Made by a program: the position numbers and the translations under genes | Origin: a virus | DNA: 64,000 bases | Strand: one strand, 5' to 3' | IMG/VR virus record: IMGVR_UViG_3300033156_000272 | Coordinates: 23,094 to 87,093 of that record | Shown: positions 4,621 through 63,860 of the stretch, in pieces | Layout: every line of letters starts with the position of its first letter | Position numbering within the stretch: position 1 is the first letter of the stretch | Notes under the pieces: model-generated | What the model was told of the DNA's origin: nothing | Seen by the model: only the letters and a program-made list of their open reading frames with translations | Database searches by the model: none

Positions 4621-7600
4621 ATGCCGATTGATATTCCCCTTGGAAATGTAGTAACAAGTTTCACAACACATGGTGAATCAGCAGTAGTAGCTGGTGCTAT
4701 GGCTGTGGACAAAAATCTCAACCAAGTGAGGAATACAGGAGACAGCCTCCGCAACACTTTTCTATTTCTTTCTTTTGGAATGCTCGCCGCTGGCGGGATG
4801 ATGTCTCGTATGGGAAAGCGATTGACAAACCTTTCTGATACGATGAGAGATACATACGCACAAATTGAGTTTGGTTCCGTTGTTGTAGGAACTATGCTCG
4901 GCAATGTAGATGAATCCATGAAAGAAGTCATGGAAACAGCAATAAGGCTTGGTCGTGAGACCGAGCGTACAGCTCAAGACGCTGTTGATGCAATGCGTAG
5001 GCTTGCAATGGCGGGTTTCGACACTGCAGAGACTATGGGTTCAGTCGAAGCAGTTCTTAAATTAGCAACAATCGCAGAGGTTGATGCTGCAGCGGCAGCA
5101 GAATTGGCTGCTGGTGTTTTTCGTTCATTTGGATTTGAAGCACAAACTGCAGCTGATGCTGCTGCGGGAATGACAGAAGTGGTTAGTATGCTTGCGGCGG
5201 CTGCCTCAAGTAGTGCCGCAACTGCAGGGGAGCTGGCCGAAGCACTAAAGTTCGTTGGTGTAGTTGCGCAAGAAGTAGGATATACTGTCGAATCTGTACT
5301 ATCTGCATTGATGATTGGTGCAGATAACATGGTTAAGGCTGGAATAGCTGGTCGTGGATTGCGTATGTCCCTACTCAAACTATCTGGTCGAGTGGAAGCT
5401 ATGAATGAAAATACGCTCTCACTTAGTGAAGCAATGCGAAAGTACAATCTCGAACTTTCTGACGCACAAGGAAACCTAAAGCCCCTCCCTGATCTCGTTG
5501 ATGAATTCAGCGAAAAGCTCGGAGATCTTACCCAAACAGAGAAACTATGGATTCTACAGCAACTCACGACTGTTCGTGGGAGCACGCTATGGCTTGCGAT
5601 GATGCAGGAAGGGGGAGACGCACTACGCCAGAATGAGGCCATGTTGCAGATTAGTGCGGCCAGAGAAGCCATATCTACAAAGACCAGAGAAGATTCAATT
5701 ACAGTGCTTAAGAGATATAGAAGTAATATAGAGGATAGTGCGTCTGGTCTTCAGTGGCTAGTTAATGAGATGGGGTATACGGTGGAGGAAGCCAATACAA
5801 TCAATGATGCAGTATTTGCGCTGGCCGATAATCAGTCTCGATGGAATACTGCACTAGAAGAATCAAAAGAGCTTTCTGCAATAACCGCAGCTCGACTAGA
5901 AACCCTTGCGGGAACACAATTACTCCTCAAATCTAGTATGGATGCTCTCTGGGCTAGTCTAGCAGAAGGGGTTATCCCTGTCTTCACGACATTCAACCAG
6001 ATAGTACGAAGTCTTGCAGATTGGTTATCAACCCTCCCTGGCCCAATAAAGGCAATCATAGCACTTCTTGTACTAGCAACTGGAGTAATCCTTACAATAT
6101 TAGGCGCTATGTTCAAGTGGGCTGGTACTATATTTATGCTTAATGCCGCGATCGCTGCTCTTGACAAAAAAGAGATGAAGAATATTGGTATAATGGGTCT
6201 CTGGTGGTTAAGCATAAAGAATATCTCTGGTGCGTCAAGGGGACTTGCTAGAGATGTTTTCCTCAAGAGCAGGGTAGTAGAGGCCGATAATAAAACCATC
6301 GCCTCTCATGTTACTCTCCTTTCTGCTGAAGCAGCTCAATACAATATAACAAGTGGCGCAGTAATGACAGAAGCGGTCATTATACACGAAAGTACTGGAG
6401 CAAAAATCAAACACAAACTCGCCACAATAGGACAGACAATCACCCTCAAGCTCAATACAATCGCCCTCAAAATAAGCACTGCAGTAACGGTATTTCACAC
6501 CAAGATTCTTCGCATGGCCACTACAGGAGAGGCTCTTCATGCTTCTGCAATTCTTTCGAAGACGGGTGCACTCCGAGGACAAATTCTTGTTCTCAAAATA
6601 TCAATTAGTGCAACAATAAGTCGTACTCTCGCAACAATAAAAGACACCATTGCAACAAAGCTATCTGCTGCTGCAGAATGGATTAGGACACACTCACTAC
6701 TAGCCGCAATAGCAACTACGGCCATGCTCACTGCAAAGATACTGTTCAATACAATTGCACTGGGGGCAAATCTAGCACTTATAGGGATGCATACTGCGGC
6801 CACTATTACATGGGCAGCTGCTAAGTGGGTGGCTACTGCTGCAACTGGCGTTCTCACTACTGCAATGTGGGCACTCAATGCTGCGATGTATGCAAACCCA
6901 CTGGTATGGATAATTGCTGGAATCGCCGGTCTGATTGCAATAATATACCTCCTAATCACCAATCTAGACAAGGTGGTTGAAGTCTTTAGTAAACTAGCAT
7001 CACTCATAGGGGGATTCTTTAAGTCCGTACTCGACGGAATAGTATCTTCAATCAGTTTTCTCGTTGGACTCTTTCAGTCACTTAGAGATATAATAGAAGA
7101 CACTCTCGGAACCTTCTGGGATATGGCTAGTGGGGTTGGAGCGCTTCTCGGCAATTCAATCATTCCCGATTATGTTGAACATGGTGTGGGTGAGATAGGC
7201 GATAGCTTTAAAAAGATGGAAGGTATGGCAACTAACTTCACGCAGAACGTTACAGCAGCTGTTGGGCCATCAGTTATTGAATCGCCAATTACTAATCCAC
7301 CAGTTATTGAACCACCAATTACTAATCTACCAATTACTAATCCACCAATTACTAATCTACCAATTACTAATCCACCAGTTATTGAACCACCAATTATTGA
7401 ACCACCAATTATTGAATCACCAATTATCAATCCACTGGCTATCGAGACATCACCAGTTATTGAACCACCAGTTAATGAATCATCGTCACTTTCTCGGGGT
7501 ATTGGCAACATATCACCAACACCGCCAGTAGAGCGCACAACATCTGTCAATGTTGGCTCGTCGATAGGTAGCGTTACCGTTGGCAGTGCAGAAGATTTGG

Positions 7601-8308: not shown

Positions 8309-8620
8309 ATGAAAGTGAGAAGGTTTACGATCAAGCGTCAAGGCCTGCCAATGATGGAACACCTTAAGATAGACGAGGCATCCTACAAAATCAGAGTGTG
8401 GTGGAACGAGGGCTATGTTCTAAGCATGATGCGGATGATTAGTAGAGAGGTCGTAATATCTACACGAATATCTGGCCAAGGATTTCATACCGCGCGTAAT
8501 AGTAATGAACAGGTGTTATTTGGGCTATATGTGTCTTCATACTCAGAAGAACAATTCACTCTGGTATTAGTATGCAACCAAACAGAGTACAACGAACTGA
8601 GGGGGTTGGTACATGACTAA
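8309..8620 (+). CDS. Small baseplate (plug-like) protein, copy A
   Basis: 'YKIRVWWNEGYVL'; position in the baseplate module. Confidence 0.5.
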   Translation: MKVRRFTIKRQGLPMMEHLKIDEASYKIRVWWNEGYVLSMMRMISREVVISTRISGQGFHTARNSNEQVLFGLYVSSYSEEQFTLVLVCNQTEYNELRGLVHD

Positions 8621-9458
8621 TATTACATATGAGCAATGGATATCTCACCTAGACGAGGCAACTAATACAGGTGCATACGATGTCGTTCAGAAAACTCCCC
8701 CTCCTCCCTTCCTGGATACAGCTACTATAACACTCGGCATCGGAAATAAGATATATGAGGGCATTCGTTCAATTAGTGGTCTTGAATTCACTCTATCCGC
8801 AGATCTAAGTAAGTATCAAGTAGAAGGAAAGGATGTTGTATTTGACTCTAGCGAAATGGAACCAATAGATATTACTATTAATTTTATATTAGATATTAGA
8901 CAAATAGATATGAGACGCCTGCTGCAAACTTTAGAATCAGCACATGATAACCTATACTTATGCACTCTTGTTACATTTGAATTATATGTTTCTAACTTAG
9001 GGATTAAGAACCTTGAAATAACGAGAGTTCCAGGTGCAGTATACACAAGAATGATAAAGCTCCAACTCGAAGAGATTAAAATAGAGGAGTTGTCTGGAGA
9101 GGCTGCTCTCACGGATGATGAATTAACGAACATTACTAGTGAACTCAGGCAGATATCTCTAGATTCAAAACCAAAGAGTGTAACTATAAAACCCGAGGCA
9201 GCGACGATATATGGTGTCACAATTGGGCCTTCTACCGAATCTCTTCGTCAATTAGAACAGACAATGGATGATTATTATAATATTCAACAAGTCATCTCGC
9301 AGCTAGATTATGCACACCCATATCAGGCAACTGGTTGGGTAGCACCCGAACTTCCCGCATATGATACTAACGACATGACAGAGGAGCAATTCACCGAAAT
9401 GAGACTGTGGGCGGAAGAACTGGTTCCTCATATTATACCGGGAGAGTATGAAGAGTGA
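8613..9458 (+). CDS. Dit-like/tube-initiator baseplate protein, copy B
   Basis: 'SKYQVEG...EPIDITI...SNLGIKNLEITR...LQLEEIKI'; paralogous to 7686-8303. Confidence 0.6.
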   Translation: MTNITYEQWISHLDEATNTGAYDVVQKTPPPPFLDTATITLGIGNKIYEGIRSISGLEFTLSADLSKYQVEGKDVVFDSSEMEPIDITINFILDIRQIDMRRLLQTLESAHDNLYLCTLVTFELYVSNLGIKNLEITRVPGAVYTRMIKLQLEEIKIEELSGEAALTDDELTNITSELRQISLDSKPKSVTIKPEAATIYGVTIGPSTESLRQLEQTMDDYYNIQQVISQLDYAHPYQATGWVAPELPAYDTNDMTEEQFTEMRLWAEELVPHIIPGEYEE

Positions 9459-26161: not shown

Positions 26162-27211
26162 TCAATTTACGCGCTCTACGGCGTTCATTGGTGATTCGTC
26201 AGCCGGTATCTTAGACTCCTCGGGTGCATATAGACCAGTTACCTGTATAACAACACGCTCTTCGTCGTTGTAGGTAGACAGATTGGGTCGTCCGCAAACG
26301 ATCACTCTGCTTCCCTGCCCGAAATCAATTGCGTCGAACAGATATTCCGGTATGAAACACACAATACCAGGGTCTTCTATGTCACGAGTTTCGTCGTCCA
26401 GAACCATCATTCGCGATCCACCACGTTCGTCTCTTGCAATAAACGCAACATCACCCATAGTTATAGTGAATCGCTGGTTATCGTCGGCAACCTGGTCAAA
26501 GTAGGTTTCTATAGCACCAAGTTCTATTGCGTGTCCTTCGAGATCTCCCTCTATATCTTCGAGTATAACATCAAAGTCACTATCTGGTGCATCTGCTACG
26601 TCGAATACTATTCGGCTATACGGGTTCAACAGCCTGAATCCCTCGGCAGGCGACTTCTTGCTGAGATTCGCACGGAAGCTACTCCACTTGAATACAGGAA
26701 TATCGATCTTTCCTGCCAACTGATTTCCCAGAATCATTTTGAAGGGCCAAAGATTGCCATCTTCATCCTTTGCGACTCCTTTCACATTCTGCAGAAATTC
26801 GTTCTCAGGAAGAGGCTTTCCGAAGTTGTTGTTTGGTCTGCTTCCTATCGCTTCCCTAGTATCTAACGGGATTCCATTATCGTCGGTAAAACCCTCGTCA
26901 ACTGCCTTGTCGGGATCCGTCTTGAAAAGCTCTATAGCTGCCGCCCTGGTACTTGCAATTATATCAAAGGGATTCTCTATAGAGAACAAAAATCCCTCAT
27001 AGGTTTTCGCAGGGCTTCTAAGCTGGCTTTTGAAGTCAGATCGCAGCTGTGCCAGAACGCGCTTTTGAATTAGTGTGTCGTCTGCGTCAGGCAATGCTTC
27101 CCGCATCTGCACATTTTCCTTCTCTACCAGCTCTTTGAAGGCATCTGATCCGATGCCTAGCTTTTCCTTGAAGAGCTTTTCTAGCTCTTTCATTACGTCT
27201 TTCTTAGCCAT
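26162..27211 (-). CDS. Putative OB-fold single-stranded DNA-binding protein (RPA-like)
   Basis: Acidic; C-terminal OB-like 'MGDV..I....RMMVLDD...CF....FGQGSRVIVCG...IQVTGLY'; within the replication module. Confidence 0.65.
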   Translation of the reverse strand: MAKKDVMKELEKLFKEKLGIGSDAFKELVEKENVQMREALPDADDTLIQKRVLAQLRSDFKSQLRSPAKTYEGFLFSIENPFDIIASTRAAAIELFKTDPDKAVDEGFTDDNGIPLDTREAIGSRPNNNFGKPLPENEFLQNVKGVAKDEDGNLWPFKMILGNQLAGKIDIPVFKWSSFRANLSKKSPAEGFRLLNPYSRIVFDVADAPDSDFDVILEDIEGDLEGHAIELGAIETYFDQVADDNQRFTITMGDVAFIARDERGGSRMMVLDDETRDIEDPGIVCFIPEYLFDAIDFGQGSRVIVCGRPNLSTYNDEERVVIQVTGLYAPEESKIPADESPMNAVERVN

Positions 27212-27229
27212 TTTATTTTTCCTCCTTGT

Positions 27230-27285
27230 TTTTACTCATCACGCTTTTACTCATCACGCTTTTACTCATCACGCTTTTACTCATC
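27230..27285. repeat. 3.7 x 15-nt perfect tandem repeat (TTTTACTCATCACGC)
   Basis: Read directly; repeats the GAT GAG TAA end of the AbrB-like gene. Confidence 0.95.
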
Positions 27286-40920: not shown

Positions 40921-42441
40921 TCCTCCTTATCTGCTAGTTCTTTATTCGGCGTAAATACATTCACACCAATATGAACTCTAAGTTTTTGGCAGTTAGTTAG
41001 CACTGGTTACTCCCCCCATTCAGTTCCAGGAGGTGCACCAACAGGATTCTCTATATTCAGCTTACTCACCTTCTTAGTTAAGATGTCGATGTGCATTTGC
41101 ATGTATGATATGGTAGCACATAAAGCGTAATTGTCACAATTTGTACACCCTTCAAATTCGCAGAAAGCCCTAGGATCGGGTCCCAAGTGGTCTTTCAGGC
41201 TAGTGTTGCACTTAGAATAGGGTATTTTGGTTTTCGTCATACACTCTCCCTCCTCGCTTCTTTCTAATGGCCCCACTGGTCCCTTTACTATTCGATGAAG
41301 ATTCCTCTTCCCCGTTAGTACGTTTTCTGTCTTCATCAGAATCGGATTCCTCGAGTCCGGAACTCCCGCTTTCTTGTGCATCTTTACTAGTGGGTTCGGG
41401 GTCGTCGCTTTGGGGTTTATAGTTATCCCTCCGTAATTCCCTGGCGGAAGATCTCCTTGCTCTTTCCTTCTCGTAGTCTTCCTTATTGAATCTGCAGTAT
41501 TCATCTTCATCACCATTGTAGTATCTACATTCTCCATTCTCGTATAGGTGTGCTATCTTACATATAATCGCCGAGTTCTGTGAACAATGGTATATGGGAC
41601 ATAAGTATGGTGTTGATCTCTGTTGAGAATCCTTTTCCATATTGTTTCCTCCTTTCCTCTTCCATCTTGTCAAAGAAAAACTTGGCGGTCTTTCTGTCTA
41701 AGCTCCTTTCGTTCCAGATAGCCCATCGAACACATGCATCATCGAATGATTTTGCACTGTCTTCTATTGATTGATTGGGTAACCATATTGCAGATACTGG
41801 ACAATTTTCAACATGTGCCTTGAGCTTGTGGAGTACTTTCTCCTTTGCACCAAGCTCTACAAAACTACCTATAATTTCTTTTTCTATGTCAACTTCCTTT
41901 ATATTAAAATCAAAGGTTCCCGTCTTTGTAACTCCCTCTGCGTCTTTTACAAATACCGCAAATATCTCACCATTGACTCCATCCCAGGTGAATTGCGGTC
42001 TGCGAAAGTTAAACCTAAATCCGTGCTTTAAGAATAGTCTTTTTAGGGCCACTTTGTTGTTATGATATGCCTGGCCATCAAGTATAAACGTTCTCATTCT
42101 ACTCATAGATAGTATTCCCCATCTGGTTCTGGTATTGGAATTGGCGATATGCCAACGTGCTTCATCTCAACTTGCTCTACTGTGGATTCCTGCTCCTTCT
42201 TGAAGAGCGACTTTCCACATACCTCACTTACCAGTATGAACGCGAGGCCAGCTGCTTCCTTCCTATCTGACTGCATCATTATTATATCGACAGAACTTCT
42301 TCTGTAGATGCAACGAAGAGTTGGGTATCTGTCTTCCAATACTCGTCCCATTGTAGAGATTTCTGCTGGTCGTGCTTTTATAGTCAAGCAAGGCATATGG
42401 ATATGTATTTTCATATTTCATATAGTATATCGCTGTCGTCG

Positions 42442-42467
42442 TATATAAATGCGTTGTAATTACAACG
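42442..42467 (-). promoter_or_regulatory. Promoter GTAATTAC-N6-TTTATATA, overlapping the 16-bp palindrome CGTTGTAATTACAACG
   Basis: Read directly; intergenic. Confidence 0.7.
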
Positions 42468-42926
42468 ACCTACTCGTCATCAGACAGATTGGTACTCTCG
42501 CAGATTGGACAGTACATGTTGGGAGGATGGCCAAAGTCAGTGTGGCTGGTGTATCCGCAGTTGTTACATTCTATCATTGTATCACGTCTCTCCATGCTTT
42601 TGAGTCCCCGGTTTGACAAGACTTAATCCCTTTATCAATTTCCGCCTTCTCTTCGGGAGTGAGGTTTATGGTGTCTGTCTCTTCAATATAGTGAGGCATC
42701 TTCCTGAATGCAGTATTCGAGAAGCCAGAGAGCTTGCGGACAGCTCTAGAGAAAGCCATTTCAGTTCCAACAATAGTATCGAATGTATCGCTCTCGTTAC
42801 ATATTGATATTCCCTCTGCCTTGTATCCATCGTATGTATATACGATAACCTTGATCCATCGTCTTTCCGGCAACATTATTCTCACCACACGATATATCGT
42901 TAGTGGTAAAGCTCTTTCCGTGGTAG

Positions 42927-43000
42927 TGAGCCTGGAGGGATTCGAACCCCCGATCAATGGATTAAAAGTCCATAGCCATACCTAGCTAGGCCACAGGCTC
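42927..43000 (-). tRNA. tRNA-Lys(UUU)
   Basis: Acceptor GAGCCTG/CAGGCTC, anticodon arm ATGGA-CTTTTAA-TCCAT, T arm GGGGG-TTCGAAT-CCCTC. Confidence 0.93.
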
Positions 43001-43362
43001 TCTGAAGGCACGGTTAGCCACTCTGGATGCTTTCGAATGCAGCCCCGAGCTTTCTTTATTAGGTCATATGCATTATGTATTCCATTACTATGGTATTTGT
43101 ATAAGTAGTACGCTACTACTAGTGGACTTCTATCAATTCCAGCGTTACAGAATATGAGTACTTGTTTATTTGCATCACGATACGCGCGGATAATACTAGT
43201 GAGTGCGTTATAGTGATTCATGTTCACTTTCGTGGTTTTTTCATTGACATCAGCTATGTCACGACAATCAACAATGCGCCATCTACTATTATACTCATGG
43301 ATACTGATAAACTCTGCATCGTACACATCGCCGATCCATATTCCAGGGATAATCTCATCCAT
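42982..43362 (-). CDS. Dual-specificity phosphatase (CX5R)
   Basis: 'EIIPGIWIG', 'FCNAGIDRS', 'AYDLIKKAR'. Confidence 0.9.
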   Translation of the reverse strand: MDEIIPGIWIGDVYDAEFISIHEYNSRWRIVDCRDIADVNEKTTKVNMNHYNALTSIIRAYRDANKQVLIFCNAGIDRSPLVVAYYLYKYHSNGIHNAYDLIKKARGCIRKHPEWLTVPSESLWPS

Positions 43363-43547
43363 AATGACACCTTATTAGTTCCATTCGATTGTTATTTCAC
43401 CACTACATTCACCATCAGAACAGTATGCATTGATGTTCTTCTTTATCCAATCGAGTACATCGTCCTGGTATTTGTCCGTCAGTAGTTCCAGCATTTCTTC
43501 TACCATCTTGCATTCAGTATCCATCGTTCATTCCTCCTGATATTCAG

Positions 43548-43616
43548 ACCCGAGCGCAGGACTCAAACCTGCTTTTGTCGACGCATCAACTGAGACACAC
43601 TCAGGTGTCACCCGGG
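43548..43616 (-). ncRNA. tRNA-like RNA (acceptor and T arm, non-canonical middle)
   Basis: CCCGGGT/GCTCGGG; T arm GCAGG-TTTGAGT-CCTGC; internal CTGAG/CTCAG hairpin. Confidence 0.5.
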
Positions 43617-43625
43617 ATGATGAAT

Positions 43626-43791
43626 AGGCCGGGTAGGGATTTGAACCCACGACGGAAGTCCTGTTGCTAAGACTACTCGAACCGCGCGCCATGTACAAGC
43701 AACGTACGCTGAGATCTTTGTCTCGTAGGCGCTCTGGGAGGCCTCCTTAATGCACTCCCTTCTGGTGCATTACCTGACTATGCTACCGGCC
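43626..43791 (-). ncRNA. Expanded tRNA-like RNA (about 166 nt)
   Basis: GGCCGG/CCGGCC acceptor, D arm GCAT-AGTCAGGTA-ATGC, T loop TTCAAAT; a multi-hairpin insert replaces the anticodon arm. Confidence 0.65.
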
Positions 43792-43804
43792 ATTTTGCGA
43801 ATGT

Positions 43805-43878
43805 TGGTGCTCGCGGAAGGATTTGAACCTTCATCACCATAAAACACTGGTGTCATCGCCAGGTTAAACTACGCGAGC
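43805..43878 (-). tRNA. Atypical tRNA with encoded CCA and an 8-nt anticodon loop (identity undetermined)
   Basis: GCTCGCG/CGCGAGC-A-CCA; T arm GAAGG-TTCAAAT-CCTTC; ACCA-GTGTTTTA-TGGT. Confidence 0.6.
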
Positions 43879-43994
43879 AAGTCGTGGCTTTTTGATAACG
43901 CAGAAGCCTAACTGCCAACTTGGTCGGCTAATCACCCAGCCCGGTGGTAACACCATGGCCACTTCGCCTAGCCGAAACCATGCTCCAGGATTTT

Positions 43995-44093
43995 ATCGAA
44001 TTTTGTATCCTGTTCCCTAATCGTTCATCATTTTGAACTTTGACTCTTAATCGTTGAGTCCTGATGTTTGAATGTTGAACTTTCTAGTTCATC
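43995..44093 (-). repeat. About 12-13 degenerate 7-nt repeats (e.g. GTTCAAA, ATTCAAA, ACTCAAC)
   Basis: GTTCAAC ATTCAAA CATCAGG ACTCAAC GATTAAG AGTCAAA GTTCAAA (AT) GATGAAC GATTAGG GAACAGG ATACAAA. Confidence 0.7.
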
Positions 44094-44099
44094 AGTCTA

Positions 44100-44172
44100 T
44101 AATATGGTGGGATTCGAACCCACGACCTCAATCTCATATAGATTGCGCTCTACCAGACAGAGCTTCATATAT
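44100..44172 (-). ncRNA. tRNA-like domain embedded in the larger RNA (pseudo tRNA-Ile UAU)
   Basis: D arm GCTC/GAGC, CAATC-TATATGA-GATTG, T arm GTGGG-TTCGAAT-CCCAC; only a 5-bp acceptor, A8, A33, no CCA. Confidence 0.75.
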
Positions 44173-44260
44173 CCATCGAAGAACTCTTAACCCAGAGCTT
44201 AGGGGGAACGAGTTTACCCGCTCGTTCCACACGGGGGCGTGTCTTTAGGTTTTCGAGTGA

Positions 44261-44893
44261 TTAGCCGACGTTAATTGTTATCTTGGTCACGGCATTGCAC
44301 TCGCTCAAGGACTGGTCTACATCAGCCTTGAACTCATCTATCTCTTTGTCGAGTTTCTCGATGAGCTTCTCAATGCCTGCAGGATCAAAGAGTGACATAG
44401 CATTGGTATCACGATACGACTTGCTGATGTTCTCTACATCAATGTTCTGTACACCTTCTTTTCCCGCAATTTTCTCTAACATGGTTTTCAGGCTTACTTC
44501 CACACTGCTATTGGCCAACTCTACCTGGTCTTTGAGATGTGCAAACTGTGTTCTCATCTGCATGAGAAGAATTTCATCATACTGAATGCTACCCTTCCTC
44601 TCTATGGCACCCGCCACAGTATAACTTTCTCCTGCAATCTTTACAGAAGTAGATGCGTTCGACGCAACAACTGCGGTTTTGATGATGTTTCTGCGCTCAA
44701 TCATTGCACGGATACTCTGCAAGTTCTTTCTGCAATGTTTCTCCATATCTTCCTTCGAAGTACGGTGTACGGTAGTGGTCTCTTTTCCTCGTACTGCCGA
44801 TAGGAATATTGCATTTACGGTCTCCTTCAGTATGCGCTTATCGAGGAGCTTCAACTCCACTAGCGCACGTGTTACGGTCATTTCTTCCATCAT
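44261..44893 (-). CDS. DUF6847/DIP1984-like ('septicolysin'-annotated) coiled-coil protein
   Basis: 'TVTRALVELKLLDKRI', 'SNASTSVKIAGESYTVAGAIERK', 'VDQSLSECNAVTKITI'; family recognised from memory; GGAGG RBS. Confidence 0.6.
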   Translation of the reverse strand: MMEEMTVTRALVELKLLDKRILKETVNAIFLSAVRGKETTTVHRTSKEDMEKHCRKNLQSIRAMIERRNIIKTAVVASNASTSVKIAGESYTVAGAIERKGSIQYDEILLMQMRTQFAHLKDQVELANSSVEVSLKTMLEKIAGKEGVQNIDVENISKSYRDTNAMSLFDPAGIEKLIEKLDKEIDEFKADVDQSLSECNAVTKITINVG

Positions 44894-44904
44894 TCATTCC
44901 TCCG

Positions 44905-45195
44905 TTGGACGAGTCGGGAATTTAACCCATATAATCGTCCATGATGACATGTTGTTTCGTGAGAGCGACTCACTGGCACATACATGTAAAGCCAAGGCGA
45001 TTGCATCCGACATGCCCACCGTCGGGGAATATGTTACGACGTGTCTGGAGTCACACCAGATTGCGCAGGGGAAGCCTGCTGGTTCCCTTCACGTCGATAG
45101 AGTTGCCGGGTTTTTCTATACCGCGCCGGCTAGCGGTTCCAGCAAGGAGATGCTGGTTGCAGGGGTTTAGAGAGGGGTTCAGGGGGATTCGTCAA
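44905..45195 (-). ncRNA. About 290-nt highly structured RNA with paired ends and a T-arm-like 3' end
   Basis: GACGAATC/GACTCGTC-CA closing helix; GGG-TTAAATT-CCC; at least 7 hairpins; complementary loops. Confidence 0.65.
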
Positions 45196-45345
45196 TTTCT
45201 ACAGGCTTACCATACATTTGCATGGCTGCCTCTATTATTACGTGGCCCATTAGTAGTAGTTCCGATGGCTTCAAATTAGTATAGTGGAATTCTACGAGGT
45301 CATCCTCAATCCTTAGTTCTATTTTGCGACTCATTATACCACTCC

Positions 45346-45390
45346 TGGTGGGGGGTTGAACATAACGGCATGCTTAAAGTTCTTCCCCCC
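45346..45390 (-). ncRNA. Minihelix-like hairpin ending in ACCA
   Basis: GGGGGG-AA-GAAC...GTTC-AA-CCCCCC-ACCA. Confidence 0.45.
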
Positions 45391-45399
45391 TTGATGTAG

Positions 45400-45461
45400 T
45401 GGGAACGGCAGGACTTTAACCTGCGTCATCTTCTGCAGAGAATCGTTTGCTCCACGCTCCC
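45400..45461 (-). ncRNA. Truncated tRNA-like RNA (62 nt)
   Basis: GGGAGCG/CGTTCCC-A; T arm GCAGG-TTAAAGT-CCTGC; vestigial D and anticodon arms. Confidence 0.55.
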
Positions 45462-45797
45462 TTACTGTAACTCATCAATCATTATTGTTTTGTGCTTAAC
45501 AGGACTTTCCCACTCTTCATCATTGATTTGCGCAATGAGCGCTTCCGACCACCATTCTACAGCATGCTGGTGTTCTCCGGTTACCACTCGTTTGTCTACT
45601 GTGACAGACTTCCCTGATATAATTGCACCGTGTTCTCTAAGTCTATTCTTTGCTTCCCTGAACGGATAACAAGATACAGTTACCCCTCCAAGTATTCTAT
45701 GGAAGATGCTTATGGCAGCACAAATGCCACCTATAATCAACCCTTGCTTTTTTGCTTCATCAACCAATGCCTGCACCTTCTCGTCTTCCCAGAACAT
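45462..45797 (-). pseudogene. N-terminally truncated DJ-1/PfpI-family protein
   Basis: 'WEDEKVQALV...IIGGICAA...VSCYP...GA....SVTVDKRVVTG'; the family's N-terminal third is absent. Confidence 0.6.
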
Positions 45798-46098
45798 TTT
45801 AGTGAGTCCAAATGCACCACTAGTTGTTGTATATTGACTTTGGTTTCTGGGGCATCCCGCTAGTATCCACTTTTCCAGAGTACAAGTTACTCTCCATAAA
45901 CATCTTAATGATTGGGTAACTTACTCGACCTCTGCGTCTCACATCAGACATGGATGGCATATCTTCTGGGTCTACTTCAATTATTTTCACTATTCTAACA
46001 TCTCCTTTTATTTGGTAGAACAGCCAGGCATTAAAGCCATCGTGCTCATGAGGATGAGAGTCAGGGGGCGAACCCCCATCATCTCGGGGTTGTGACGA

Positions 46099-62491: not shown

Positions 62492-62587
62492 ACTGGTCGC
62501 ATATTCCAAAGGGAGGAGTCCTTTGGTCGCATTCCCATGTGGATCATTACTACACTCCTTACTCCACTTACTATATTGCTGTTCTAG

Positions 62588-62611
62588 TATATAAGGGTGT
62601 TGTAATTACAA
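62588..62611 (-). promoter_or_regulatory. Promoter: GTAATTAC-N6-CTTATATA
   Basis: Matches the recurring consensus; contains the palindrome TTGTAATTACAA. Confidence 0.65.
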
Positions 62612-62939
62612 TGGTTTATGTATCCTATCATTCCGCATTGTCGTACTACACTACTACTTGTGGATCCTTCCTTGCTCCCAAACGTTAAAGAGAACAGCGA
62701 GCTTTCTATTATAATATATATTATATAATATATACATACCACATTGTCGTACTATGCTGTTCATTCCTCCATATTGTCGTACTACACTGTATACTCCTAA
62801 TATATCGCGCAGTTGGTTCCAAGGGAACTTATACCCCGGGATGGCCCAATGAATATGATGGAAAATATTAGACCTGTTTGTGGTCTATAAAAATAATAAG
62901 AGACCCCCTTTTTTTTGCGAGAAAAGTAGGTAGAGATAA

Positions 62940-63860
62940 CCTGCTCATCGGAGGTATTATTGAAAAAAATGTTCGATCAGCCGGATACATTTCCCGGTTG
63001 TGGATTTACCGTAGCACGAATTGCGCCACATAGAGCGGCTCAACGTGGCTATTTGCGAAAAATAGCATGTCGCCTCCGGGGGGGGGCGCCAAAGTATTAC
63101 CGATCAGCGAGAAGAACAAGATCGAGAGGCTCATCGGCGATATCGCATGGGTTACATATTCACATGGCCGAACAGGCTAGACCGCCGTAAATTCGTCGGG
63201 TAACAACTAAAACATGTAGACCCATCTAGATTGCAGCTAATCTCCTGGACAGCCAGCTTACTTCAGCGAGGAAATCGAAAAAAAACGCGCGATGAGCCTT
63301 AAACATTTCACTAGTCGGGATTTCCCGATCACCCCCCGAGGAGAGGCTCAACAGCGATATCTTGGGGGGGTAAGAATGTCAGAGTGATCGACGGATGACA
63401 AAGATACGCTCAACAGCGCGCATTTTTAAATCTAGCTCTATATTGCGGCTATTCTTCGCTGCGGGGAGGGCGCAGAATATCGTGTCGAGGTGCTCATCGG
63501 CGATATTTTGGGAGTTACATGTAGCTAATGTCGTGAGATGGGATCTTGGTATTTCCCTAAACGCGGTATATTCACTGTGCGAAAAATATTGTACGGGTTA
63601 CATATTCACATGGCCGACTCACATGGCGGGATGTGAATTCGTCGGGTAATAATCAAAATGGGTATATCCATGTGAATTCGTCGGGTAATAACTAAAATGG
63701 GTAGACTCATAGTGTCCGCATTCAGTGCGCAAATAGCCTCATTCTTCTTCTCTGGGGAGCAGACATCGACACGAGTTGCATGTTGCATTCATTGCGCAAA
63801 TATTCACTTCTTCCTTCTCTAGGGATCAGGCATCGTGTCTCCATTCATTGCGCAAACTGT
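62940..63860. repeat. Non-coding region with several families of direct repeats (putative origin or terminus)
   Basis: About 6 GCTCAWCRGCGATAT-like copies; a 23-mer twice; a 39-mer in tandem plus a third copy; CATTCAKTGCGCAAA three times. Confidence 0.75.

What the first reader, a model, noticed from the sequence alone, without database searches (positions are those of the whole stretch)
44905..45195. Second ornate RNA (~290 nt) immediately upstream of the same gene
Seen on the minus strand: ends pair (GACGAATC/GACTCGTC-CA) next to a T-arm-like GGG-TTAAATT-CCC. A 5' tract has three CCCCT runs. Hairpins include CCAGCA/TGCTGG, ACCGC/GCGGT and ATAGA/TCTAT, the last two with complementary loops (GCCGG at 45126-45130, CCGGC at 45105-45109). 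CGACGTG/CACGTCG encloses GGGAA/TTCCC and TCTGG/CCAGA, followed by CCGAC/GTCGG, TGGC/GCCA and GTGAG/CTCAC. It ends right at the RBS of the DUF6847-like gene. The layout recalls tmRNA but lacks Ala identity. Inference: an undescribed large ncRNA, possibly part of the same system.
Basis: partly seen in the sequence, partly recalled or inferred. Interest (0 to 1): 0.8.

Follow-up and report, generated by a model that had tools for sequence, protein, structure and literature searches.

The report
tRNA-derived spacer in viral tRNA island
The 285-base gap before this viral gene is a hairpin-rich non-coding stretch built partly from cut-down tRNA genes, one of them an alanine tRNA that has lost its middle, and it most likely marks where host tRNA-trimming enzymes cut the viral message; it does not look like one new large RNA.

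Summary
The listed hairpins all exist. Perfect short hairpins are far denser than chance: 9 against 2.5±1.6 in shuffles, reached by 0 of 1000. The stretch is non-coding. A single ornate ~290-nt RNA is not supported. Whole-region folding is no better than shuffles (z -1.29). The proposed end-to-end pairing has a mismatch, its 5' strand lies inside a coding ORF, and 118 of 2000 shuffles give an equal partner. No tmRNA, tRNA or other Rfam family reaches threshold.

The spacer belongs to a 2.5-kb tRNA island unique to this probably archaeal 87-kb virus. It holds two tRNA-derived modules. One is a 60-nt anticodon-arm-less tRNA look-alike (45096-45037). The other is a 35-nt minihelix (44940-44906) whose T-arm and 3' strand match the 3' end of archaeal tRNA-Ala genes, with the G3:U70 alanine mark changed to A:U.

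Best reading: t-element-like cutting marks for RNase P and tRNase Z in a polycistronic transcript. This is unproven, because no relatives or RNA data exist. This scan's earlier notes reported similar minihelices in methanogen viruses on other DNA.

The parts
44894..45178 (-). 285-nt non-coding spacer between the stop of a 51-aa ORF (45334-45179) and the start of the 210-aa phrog_1491 gene (44893-44261)
   Evidence: ORF map and sequence. Codon-usage scores of all frames in it run from -0.19 to 0.01, against 0.26+-0.17 for in-frame gene windows. There are 9 perfect hairpins against 2.49+-1.60 in shuffles.
45161..45186 (-). C-rich tract with three CCCCT runs. The first overlaps the ORF51 stop codon.
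   Evidence: Sequence. In the MFE fold one run pairs with the SD of the downstream gene, but this is a prediction only.
45101..45162 (-). Two hairpins plus a tail that can form a 5-bp pseudoknot or kissing contact (GCCGG 45130-45126 with CCGGC 45109-45105). It weakly resembles the Rfam family Proteo-phage-1.
   Evidence: RF03044 scores 20.4 bits against a gathering score of 42. E is 0.18 for the 341-nt search, 1.6 for 3 kb, and 0.0106 for this family alone against the genome. The fold z is -1.11.
45037..45096 (-). TLS-A, a 60-nt tRNA look-alike without an anticodon arm. It has a 7-bp terminal helix, a 2-nt spacer, a 5-bp hairpin, an 8-nt linker, and a 5-bp hairpin with a 7-nt loop that abuts the 3' strand.
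   Evidence: Found by my acceptor-plus-T-arm geometry scan, whose background is 18.3+-4.4 hits per genome on both strands, or about 0.03 expected in 285 nt. The MFE and centroid folds give this structure, with z -1.72 and 12 of 200 shuffles as good. The tRNA model does not match it.
44947..45036 (-). Linker with three or four short hairpins (CCGAC/GTCGG, TGGC/GCCA, GTGAG/CTCAC)
   Evidence: The fold z is -1.50 with 15 of 200 shuffles as good. No homologue was found.
44906..44940 (-). TLS-B, a tRNA-Ala-derived minihelix. It has a 6-bp acceptor helix (GGACGA/TCGTCC), a T-arm (GGG-TTAAATT-CCC) and a discriminator A, and it lacks D and anticodon arms. An AT-rich TATA-like hexamer (44934-44929) sits at the deletion joint.
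   Evidence: Its 3' 22 nt, with three T-loop positions left free, match 9 genome loci, 6 of them archaeal. In a Methanosarcinales and a Thermoplasmatota MAG the match is the 3' end of tRNA-Ala(CGC). The fold z is -2.64 with 3 of 200 shuffles as good. It belongs to repeat family D1 together with the island's tRNA T-arms.
44886..44903 (-). SD and start-codon module of the 210-aa gene. A 94%-identical copy precedes the 49-aa ORF at 43537-43520, also just after a tRNA-like element.
   Evidence: Repeat family D3 and sequences.

Best explanation
The stretch is not one large RNA gene. It is the non-coding spacer of a viral tRNA island, assembled partly from cut-down tRNA genes.

Shown:
- It is non-coding and hairpin-dense.
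- It lies on the same strand as the island's three tRNAs called by both ARAGORN and the Rfam tRNA model, plus a fourth tRNA-model match (45400-45461, 30.4 bits) and further tRNA-like elements.
- It contains a 60-nt anticodon-arm-less tRNA look-alike (TLS-A).
- Two to three bases before the ribosome-binding site it contains a 35-nt acceptor-stem/T-arm minihelix (TLS-B). TLS-B descends from an archaeal-type tRNA-Ala gene by loss of roughly positions 10-48. The alanine identity pair G3:U70 has been converted to A3:U70.

Inferred:
- The island is transcribed as one long message. No run of 5 or more T lies on that strand over 3.25 kb.
- Host RNase P and tRNase Z recognise the tRNA-like modules as they recognise t-elements. 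They cut on either side of them, which releases the tRNAs, separates the short ORF messages, and gives the 210-aa gene's mRNA a 5' end just upstream of its SD.
- TLS-A, TLS-B and the hairpin linkers would be by-products or short-lived small RNAs, and TLS-B could not be charged with alanine.
For: Context:
- All 4 matches of the Rfam tRNA model in the 87-kb virus lie within window 42927-45461 on the minus strand.
- The acceptor-plus-T-arm geometry scan finds 5 distinct elements there, where about 0.27 are expected.

TLS-B ancestry:
- The pattern search gave 9 genome hits, 6 of them archaeal. ARAGORN calls tRNA-Ala(CGC) at the Methanosarcinales and Thermoplasmatota hits, and both end in the same 3' 23 nt except for two T-loop bases.
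- The local 5' strand keeps 5 of 7 acceptor bases plus the following TA.

Punctuation pattern:
- All 3 small or medium ORFs inside the island are immediately preceded by a tRNA-like 3' end. The gaps are 3 nt (TLS-B to SD), 4 nt (hairpin 45390-45350 ending in ACCA, then GGAG) and 11 nt (element 43616-43549).
- The SD/start module is duplicated together with the preceding tRNA-like end (D1 and D3).
- No T5+ run occurs on the minus strand from 46100 to 42850, against 0.86 per kb genome-wide (Poisson P 0.06).

Precedent:
- t-elements are cut by RNase P and tRNase Z in the archaeon Haloferax volcanii (passages of PMC4326828) and in plant mitochondria (passages of PMC1920247).
- In phage T4 an ORF, eight tRNAs and the species I and II RNAs share one precursor transcript (passage of PMC2330249).
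Against: - There is no RNA evidence at all, since no sequencing run was listed.
- No covariation test is possible, because no relative carries the island.
- An internal deletion of a tRNA gene leaves the acceptor strands complementary by descent, so the intact helix of TLS-B does not by itself show selection.
- Neither TLS-A nor TLS-B matches the tRNA covariance model even at E<=10 in a 341-nt search.
- The T-loops differ from those of the island's real tRNAs.
- Fold z-scores are modest, from -1.1 to -2.6.
- A TATA-like hexamer at the minihelix joint predicts a transcription start at nearly the same base, so a primary 5' end would explain the geometry equally well.
- The archaeal host is an inference. 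The island's tRNA-Lys is only 72-74% identical over most of its length to the five MAGs tested.
Confidence: 0.5

Rival explanations
1. Debris of decaying tRNA genes. The spacer would be what remains of tRNA genes, at least a tRNA-Ala gene, after deletions in a fast-turning-over accessory island, and its hairpins would have no present function.
For: - The island is absent from the five nearest PolB relatives, so it is accessory.
- TLS-B has lost the alanine identity pair and two bases of the T-loop seen in the cellular tRNA-Ala genes.
- The tRNA model does not score either module.
- The island also holds a tRNA with a 6-nt anticodon loop and other aberrant tRNA-like genes.
- A DJ-1/PfpI gene just upstream of the spacer lacks the N-terminal part of its domain, which suggests local rearrangement.
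Against: - Hairpin density is far above shuffles (0 of 1000).
- All 17 stem pairs of TLS-A are Watson-Crick, although its loops bear no resemblance to tRNA loops. Neutral decay should break stems as fast as it changes loops.
- Three separate ORFs each sit directly behind a tRNA-like 3' end.
Confidence: 0.25
2. Promoter plus 5' leader. The AT-rich hexamer at 44934-44929 would be the TATA box of an archaeal-type promoter for the 210-aa gene, starting transcription about 26 nt downstream at about 44906-44905. The upstream hairpins would then be the 3' trailer of the ORF51 message or protein-binding DNA.
For: - Similar AT-rich boxes lie 30-70 nt upstream of other genes of the virus, for example before the starts at 42414, 16676, 34637 and 62385.
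- The hairpin before ORF51 also encloses an AT-rich box at a comparable distance.
- The hairpin count is the same on both strands, so a DNA-level role is not excluded.
Against: - The bases between the box and the predicted start are exactly the T-arm and 3' acceptor strand of a tRNA-Ala. A promoter does not require this.
- A single AT-rich hexamer in a 43% GC genome is weak evidence. I ran no statistical test of promoter motifs.
- The third ORF-preceding element (43616-43549) has no such box.
Confidence: 0.12
3. One large structured ncRNA of about 290 nt. It would be closed by pairing of 45195-45188 with 44915-44908, tmRNA-like or a cognate RNA partner of the downstream protein.
For: - Hairpin density is high.
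- A 7-of-8 long-range partner exists, and only 118 of 2000 shuffles give one.
- The 3' end derives from tRNA-Ala, as does the tRNA-like domain of tmRNA (the tmRNA comparison is recalled knowledge).
- Homologues of the gene sit in tRNA islands that also carry known small-RNA motifs: skipping-rope in phage Jenst and drum in phage D-1873.
Against: - The whole-region fold z is -1.29.
- The 5' strand lies inside coding sequence.
- The fold prefers the local partner.
- There is no G3:U70, no tag frame, no ARAGORN tmRNA and no Rfam tmRNA, RNase P or SRP match at E<=10.
- Nothing similar lies upstream of 68 homologous loci.
Confidence: 0.06
4. Viral attachment site. The tRNA-Ala 3' fragment would be the core of an attP for integration into a host tRNA-Ala gene.
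For: The same 3' motif occurs in 17 IMG/VR contigs. Most carry only the 3' fragment of a tRNA with no tRNA gene called, which is the usual look of att cores.
Against: - No tyrosine or serine recombinase was found in the complete 87-kb genome, which has direct terminal repeats.
- The T-loop differs at two positions from the cellular genes, so integration would not restore a normal tRNA.
- A complementary 5' strand sits right next to the fragment. An att core does not need one.
Confidence: 0.02

Closest known systems
t-elements: tRNA-like processing signals of Haloferax volcanii (upstream of 5S rRNA) and of plant mitochondria
   Same: They are tRNA-like structures without decoding function, placed directly next to another RNA whose end they define, and they are cut by RNase P and tRNase Z (passages of PMC4326828; passages of PMC1920247). 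TLS-B and TLS-A have the acceptor-plus-T-arm geometry and abut an SD or another module.
   Different: - Cleavage here is untested.
- The setting is a viral tRNA island.
- TLS-B can be traced to a specific tRNA, tRNA-Ala, with its identity pair erased.
- I read only passages of those papers, and I did not read the primary Haloferax papers they cite (Holzle 2008, 2012).
Phage T4 tRNA gene cluster with species I and II RNAs and the embedded segB ORF
   Same: One precursor transcript carries tRNAs, extra small stable RNAs and an ORF whose message must be cut out (passage of PMC2330249). Here too, ORFs are interleaved with tRNAs and tRNA-like RNAs on one strand.
   Different: - The host domain is probably different.
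- No sequence similarity was seen.
- No Rfam model matched.
- Stability of the products here is unknown.
tmRNA
   Same: Its tRNA-like domain consists of an acceptor stem and T-arm of alanine type without an anticodon arm (recalled knowledge). TLS-B is of that type by descent.
   Different: - There is no G3:U70.
- There is no tag reading frame or pseudoknot series.
- ARAGORN and the Rfam tmRNA models are negative.
- The tRNA-like part is closed by a local 5' strand, not by the far 5' end.
Proteo-phage-1 RNA motif (Rfam RF03044)
   Same: Positions 45162-45101 align over the full model. They give two hairpins, AGCCGG in the second loop and CCGGCA in the 3' tail, which are complementary to each other.
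   Different: - The score is 20.4 bits against a gathering score of 42.
- Both hairpin loops are much shorter.
- The E-value is not significant once all 4227 families are counted.
- The control search rang weakly in 10 of 14 unrelated genomes.
- No paper text on the motif was found, and supplements are closed.

Membership tests
tmRNA | Match to tmRNA covariance models or ARAGORN tmRNA detection | tested here: not met
   No tmRNA family matched at E<=10 in the 341-nt or 3-kb searches. ARAGORN -m found none at the default threshold. At a lowered threshold it gave only a permuted call elsewhere, at 43324-43898.
tmRNA | G3:U70 alanine identity pair in the acceptor stem | tested here: not met
The role of G3:U70 is recalled knowledge.
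tmRNA | Internal tag reading frame ending in a stop | tested here: not met
   ARAGORN reports no tag peptide here. The frames in the stretch show no coding signal.
tRNA (RF00005) | Score of at least 29 bits against the tRNA covariance model | tested here: not met
   The whole virus has only 4 matches, none within 44894-45195.
tRNA with an intron | A cloverleaf is restored after removing one insert | tested here: not met
   ARAGORN at its default threshold found 0 tRNAs among 64,183 single-deletion variants of 45260-44880. At a lowered threshold it gave 3 weak 88-90-nt calls (one search used a wrong option). ARAGORN -i was also negative. Two or more inserts were not tested.
t-element (tRNA-like processing signal) | Acceptor-like helix stacked on a T-arm-like hairpin, with no decoding arm | tested here: met
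   TLS-A spans 45096-45037 and TLS-B spans 44940-44906. TLS-B is homologous to the tRNA-Ala 3' end.
t-element (tRNA-like processing signal) | RNA ends generated at its borders by RNase P and tRNase Z | not testable with these tools
Proteo-phage-1 (RF03044) | Score at or above the gathering score of 42 bits | tested here: not met
   The score is 20.4 bits.
Cognate RNA of the phrog_1491 protein family | A similar RNA upstream of homologous genes | tested here: not met
   Across 68 loci the best blastn E was 0.73 and nhmmer found nothing. The upstream gap has a median of 110 nt. Rfam at gathering threshold on 20 of these loci found only tRNAs upstream; the other 48 loci were not scanned with Rfam.

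The most novel reading that the evidence does not exclude
The spacer is processed into a set of stable tRNA mimics: a 60-nt anticodon-less tRNA body, and an alanine-type minihelix whose identity pair has been deliberately erased so that it cannot be charged. These would act as decoys or competitors for host enzymes that bind the top half of tRNAs, such as tRNA-targeting defence nucleases, the CCA-adding enzyme or modification enzymes. That would make it a viral anti-host RNA array rather than mere punctuation.
Probability: 0.07. Interest if true: 0.7.

Novelty: new member of a known kind. Interest (0 to 1): 0.33.

Why it matters
If the modules are cut as predicted, this adds a case in which a probably archaeal tailed virus uses cut-down tRNAs to punctuate a polycistronic message. 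That mechanism has been shown experimentally only for cellular t-elements (Haloferax, plant mitochondria). This case comes with a rare, traceable origin: a tRNA-Ala gene minus its D and anticodon arms, with the charging signal removed.

It also warns annotators that hairpin-dense, GC-rich gaps in viral tRNA islands can be composites of tRNA fragments, not new RNA families. The side observation that the phrog_1491 gene family is enriched next to phage tRNA clusters may help to assign that widespread protein a function.

Tried and rejected
Tried without result:
- blastn of 44200-45500 against 50,697 phage records gave no match.
- Close-relative searches with the 210-aa protein in IMG/VR and JGI metagenomes found none. 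The same search with PolB in IMG/VR found none.
- The exact 23-nt 3' motif has no match in IMG/VR.
- Sequencing runs: none was listed and no RNA holder was listed.
- Distant PolB relatives fetched from IMG/VR (35 loci): the five nearest were searched whole. They lack the 210-aa gene and any tRNA.
- The five loci nearest by the 210-aa gene lack a PolB match.
- The TLS-A 3' pattern in IMG/VR gave 3 unrelated hits with no tRNA.
- A self-search of the virus found no paralogue of the spacer.
- A look-up of look-alike stretches in this scan's earlier findings found none.
- A full-text paper search for Proteo-phage-1 returned 0 papers. The supplement of the paper that defined it could not be consulted because supplements are closed.

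Considered and rejected:
- tmRNA, intron-bearing tRNA, attP and a protein-coding region: see the membership tests and the rival explanations.
- Host assignment from tRNA-Lys similarity to five MAGs was uninformative, at 72-74% identity.
- The PolB matches in four MAGs are ordinary cellular polymerases at 27-31% identity.
- One search used ARAGORN's -ss option by mistake. One search repeated the test properly.
- My promoter look was by eye on crude gene calls and is not a statistical test.

Full report
CONTEXT

The window is bases 23094-87093 of an 87,093-bp IMG/VR virus record with direct terminal repeats, rated complete. It encodes a tail sheath, a tape measure, a baseplate wedge and a family-B DNA polymerase.

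The polymerase's best near-full-length matches among 50,697 phage records are haloarchaeal tailed viruses at about 25% identity. The virus also carries an ERCC4 plus helix-hairpin-helix nuclease and FolE2. Together with the archaeal tRNA match described below, this makes an archaeal host likely, but the host is not established. The island's tRNA-Lys is only 72-74% identical over most of its length to the five MAGs I could test.

THE LOCUS

All genes around the finding are on the minus strand. The finding covers the gap between a 51-aa ORF (45334-45179) and a 210-aa gene (44893-44261). The gene matches PHROG 1491 at E 1e-57. That family is labelled tail fiber protein, has no Pfam match, and its real function is unknown.

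The gap is 285 nt (45178-44894). That ORF has a codon-usage score as good as the virus's long genes: 0.37 against 0.26+-0.17.

The gap sits in a 2.5-kb island (42927-45461). The island holds the only four matches to the Rfam tRNA model in the whole virus. These are tRNA-Lys(UUU), a tRNA with a 6-nt anticodon loop, tRNA-Ile(UAU), and a 62-nt match of 30.4 bits at 45400-45461.

THE OBSERVATION

Counted objectively, the stretch has 9 perfect hairpins of at least 5 bp with loops of 3-14 nt. Dinucleotide shuffles give 2.49+-1.60, and 0 of 1000 reach 9. Only 0.86% of 1736 equal-size windows of the virus reach 9. GC is 53% against 43% for the window. No frame in the stretch has a coding signal, with scores from -0.19 to 0.01. 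The two long plus-strand ORFs that cross it are antisense to real genes and have no family match beyond one weak PHROG hit. So the stretch is non-coding, and its hairpin density is real.

By contrast, the minimum free energy of the whole stretch is not better than shuffles. It gives z -1.29 with 11 of 100 as good on the minus strand, and z -1.78 with 6 of 100 on the plus strand. Its parts give z values from -1.1 to -2.6.

The proposed closing helix is 7 of 8 with an A.C mismatch, and 118 of 2000 shuffles of the upstream sequence offer an equal partner. The fold instead pairs the 3' strand with GGACGA only five bases upstream of the T-arm.

KNOWN FAMILIES

Rfam at gathering thresholds finds only tRNAs in the window. 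At E<=10 on the stretch itself, the only match is Proteo-phage-1 (RF03044) at 45162-45101, with 20.4 bits against a gathering score of 42. E is 0.18 for the 341-nt search and 1.6 for a 3-kb search.

The score is still not significant over 4227 families, and the same model rings weakly in 10 of 14 control genomes. I treat it as a lead only.

ARAGORN finds no tRNA or tmRNA in the stretch, with or without intron search. It also finds none in any of 64,183 variants with one segment deleted.

WHAT THE PARTS ARE

I scanned for tRNA top-half geometry: a 7-bp terminal helix whose 3' strand directly follows a 5-bp hairpin with a 7-nt loop. The scan finds 27 sites in the virus, against 18.3+-4.4 in 30 shuffles, so the motif alone is common. 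However, five distinct elements cluster on the minus strand of the island, where 0.27 are expected. One of them lies in the finding, at 45096-45037, where about 0.03 is expected.

This element, TLS-A, has a 7-bp helix, a 2-nt spacer, a 5-bp hairpin, an 8-nt linker in place of the anticodon arm, and a 5-bp hairpin with a 7-nt loop abutting the 3' strand. All of its stem pairs are Watson-Crick.

The 3' element, TLS-B (44940-44906), belongs to a repeat family formed by the T-arms of the island's tRNAs (D1).

I searched one genome for each of 185,579 species for TLS-B's T-stem and 3' strand, leaving three loop positions free. This gave 9 hits, 6 of them archaeal: two Methanosarcinales, two Nitrosopumilus, one Bathyarchaeia and one Thermoplasmatota. 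In one Methanosarcinales MAG and the Thermoplasmatota MAG, the hit is the 3' end of a gene that ARAGORN calls tRNA-Ala(CGC).

Aligned with these (and by eye for the 5' strand), TLS-B is that tRNA with the D arm, anticodon arm and variable loop removed. The 3' strand and the 3' half of the T-stem are identical. Two T-loop bases differ. The 5' strand keeps 5 of 7 bases and the following TA. The third base is A where the cellular genes have G, so the G:U pair at position 3:70 has become A:U. By recalled knowledge, that pair marks tRNA-Ala for its synthetase.

NO COMPARATIVE TEST IS POSSIBLE

Homologues of the 210-aa gene are common, with 740 phage records and 122 metagenomic proteins, none above 47% identity.

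In 63 IMG/VR loci and 5 annotated phage loci, nothing resembles the stretch and the upstream gap is short, with a median of 110 nt. The five loci nearest by this gene lack a PolB match. The virus's nearest PolB relatives (35-40% identity) include three complete genomes of 89-95 kb. These have neither the gene nor any tRNA. The island is thus an accessory insert known only from this virus. No run holding the sequence was listed.

MECHANISM

Three ORFs lie inside the island, and each begins right after a tRNA-like 3' end:
- TLS-B ends 3 nt before the SD of the 210-aa gene.
- A GGGGGG/CCCCCC hairpin (45390-45350), followed by ACCA, ends at the SD of the 51-aa ORF.
- A cloverleaf-like element (43616-43549) ends 11 nt before the SD of a 49-aa ORF.

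The SD/start module behind TLS-B is repeated at 94% identity behind the third element (D3). There is no run of five or more T on this strand for 3.25 kb (Poisson P 0.06). This fits one long transcript if the host terminates at oligo-T, as archaea are known to do (recalled).

In Haloferax, tRNA-like t-elements are cut by RNase P and tRNase Z and have been used to excise an RNA placed between them (PMC4326828, passages). In Arabidopsis mitochondria they define mRNA ends (PMC1920247, passages). In T4, an ORF shares a precursor with eight tRNAs and two extra small RNAs (PMC2330249, passage).

I therefore think the most likely role of the two modules is punctuation of the message, with the hairpin linkers as by-products. 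I put this at about one half. The description of the parts is much firmer than the mechanism.

RIVALS

The chief rival is functionless debris of tRNA genes. An internal deletion leaves the acceptor strands complementary by descent, so TLS-B's helix proves little.

A second rival is a promoter. The AT-rich hexamer created at the deletion joint (44934-44929) lies where a TATA box would place a transcription start at about 44906. That is the same base at which tRNase Z would cut. Similar boxes precede other genes (by eye).

The single large RNA and the attachment-site readings are unlikely, for the reasons given under the rival explanations. No integrase of either class was found.

EARLIER NOTES OF THIS SCAN

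A first-reader note on this window (e1-6126270) lists the same island of tRNA mimics. Notes on other genomes report acceptor/T-arm minihelices and anticodon-less tRNAs in methanogen viruses, read as t-element-like signals. These are unchecked AI notes and not evidence. They show that the scan has met this kind of element before on other DNA.

VERDICT

The element is a new member of a known kind (tRNA-derived processing-signal-like elements in a viral tRNA island), not a new class of large RNA. Its interest is modest. The traceable tRNA-Ala origin with the erased identity pair is the most distinctive point.

Noticed in passing
window 44261-44893, with loci L007-L069 and L002-L006: The phrog_1491 gene family (210 aa, function unknown) is enriched next to phage tRNA clusters. 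30 of 63 IMG/VR loci have a tRNA within 1.5 kb, always on the same strand and mostly downstream. The control is 5 of 35 PolB loci (Fisher P 0.001). In phages pVp-1, Jenst and D-1873 tRNAs lie directly upstream. In Jenst a skipping-rope RNA starts 10 nt after the gene, and in D-1873 a drum RNA lies downstream.
   Followed up: partly
window 45400-45461 and 43549-43616 (minus strand): Two further tRNA-like elements share an identical T-stem (repeat D5). The first scores 30.4 bits as a tRNA but has a collapsed D/anticodon region. The second folds as a four-arm cloverleaf (z -2.23) that the tRNA model does not match.
   Followed up: partly
window 45350-45390 (minus strand): A GGGGGG/CCCCCC hairpin is followed by ACCA and then directly by the SD of the 51-aa ORF. 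It resembles an acceptor-stem mimic with an encoded CCA end.
   Followed up: no
window 45462-45990 (minus strand): A DJ-1/PfpI gene fragment matches only profile positions 78-163 of 165, so its N-terminal part is missing. It is preceded by a 56-aa ORF in another frame with no family match.
   Followed up: no
window 43805-43878 and 43625-43792 (minus strand): ARAGORN calls a tRNA with a two-base anticodon (6-nt loop). Only at a lowered threshold does it call a 168-nt tRNA-Ala with a 71-nt insert.
   Followed up: no
L107 (Methanosarcinales MAG contig CAZJFT010000014.1), around 2744-2865: A 121-nt tRNA-like gene has a 45-nt insert and the same 3' end as TLS-B. On the same 8-kb locus there is a weak match (27% over 130 aa, E 6e-5) to the window's ORF 8613-9458. 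This could be a related viral or proviral contig.
   Followed up: partly
L122-L138 (IMG/VR contigs): Most of the 17 contigs are AT-rich viral contigs that carry only the 3' ~27 nt of a Nitrosopumilus-type tRNA with no tRNA gene called. These look like attachment-site cores.
   Followed up: no
window ~62500-63000, 42208-42500 and 4908-5200: These are other windows of the virus with 10-14 perfect short hairpins per 302 nt, more than in the finding itself.
   Followed up: no
window ~27212-27280 (minus strand, upstream of the gene starting at 27211): Three to four tandem copies of a 15-nt unit lie directly before the SD of the 349-aa gene (seen in the upstream listing).
   Followed up: no
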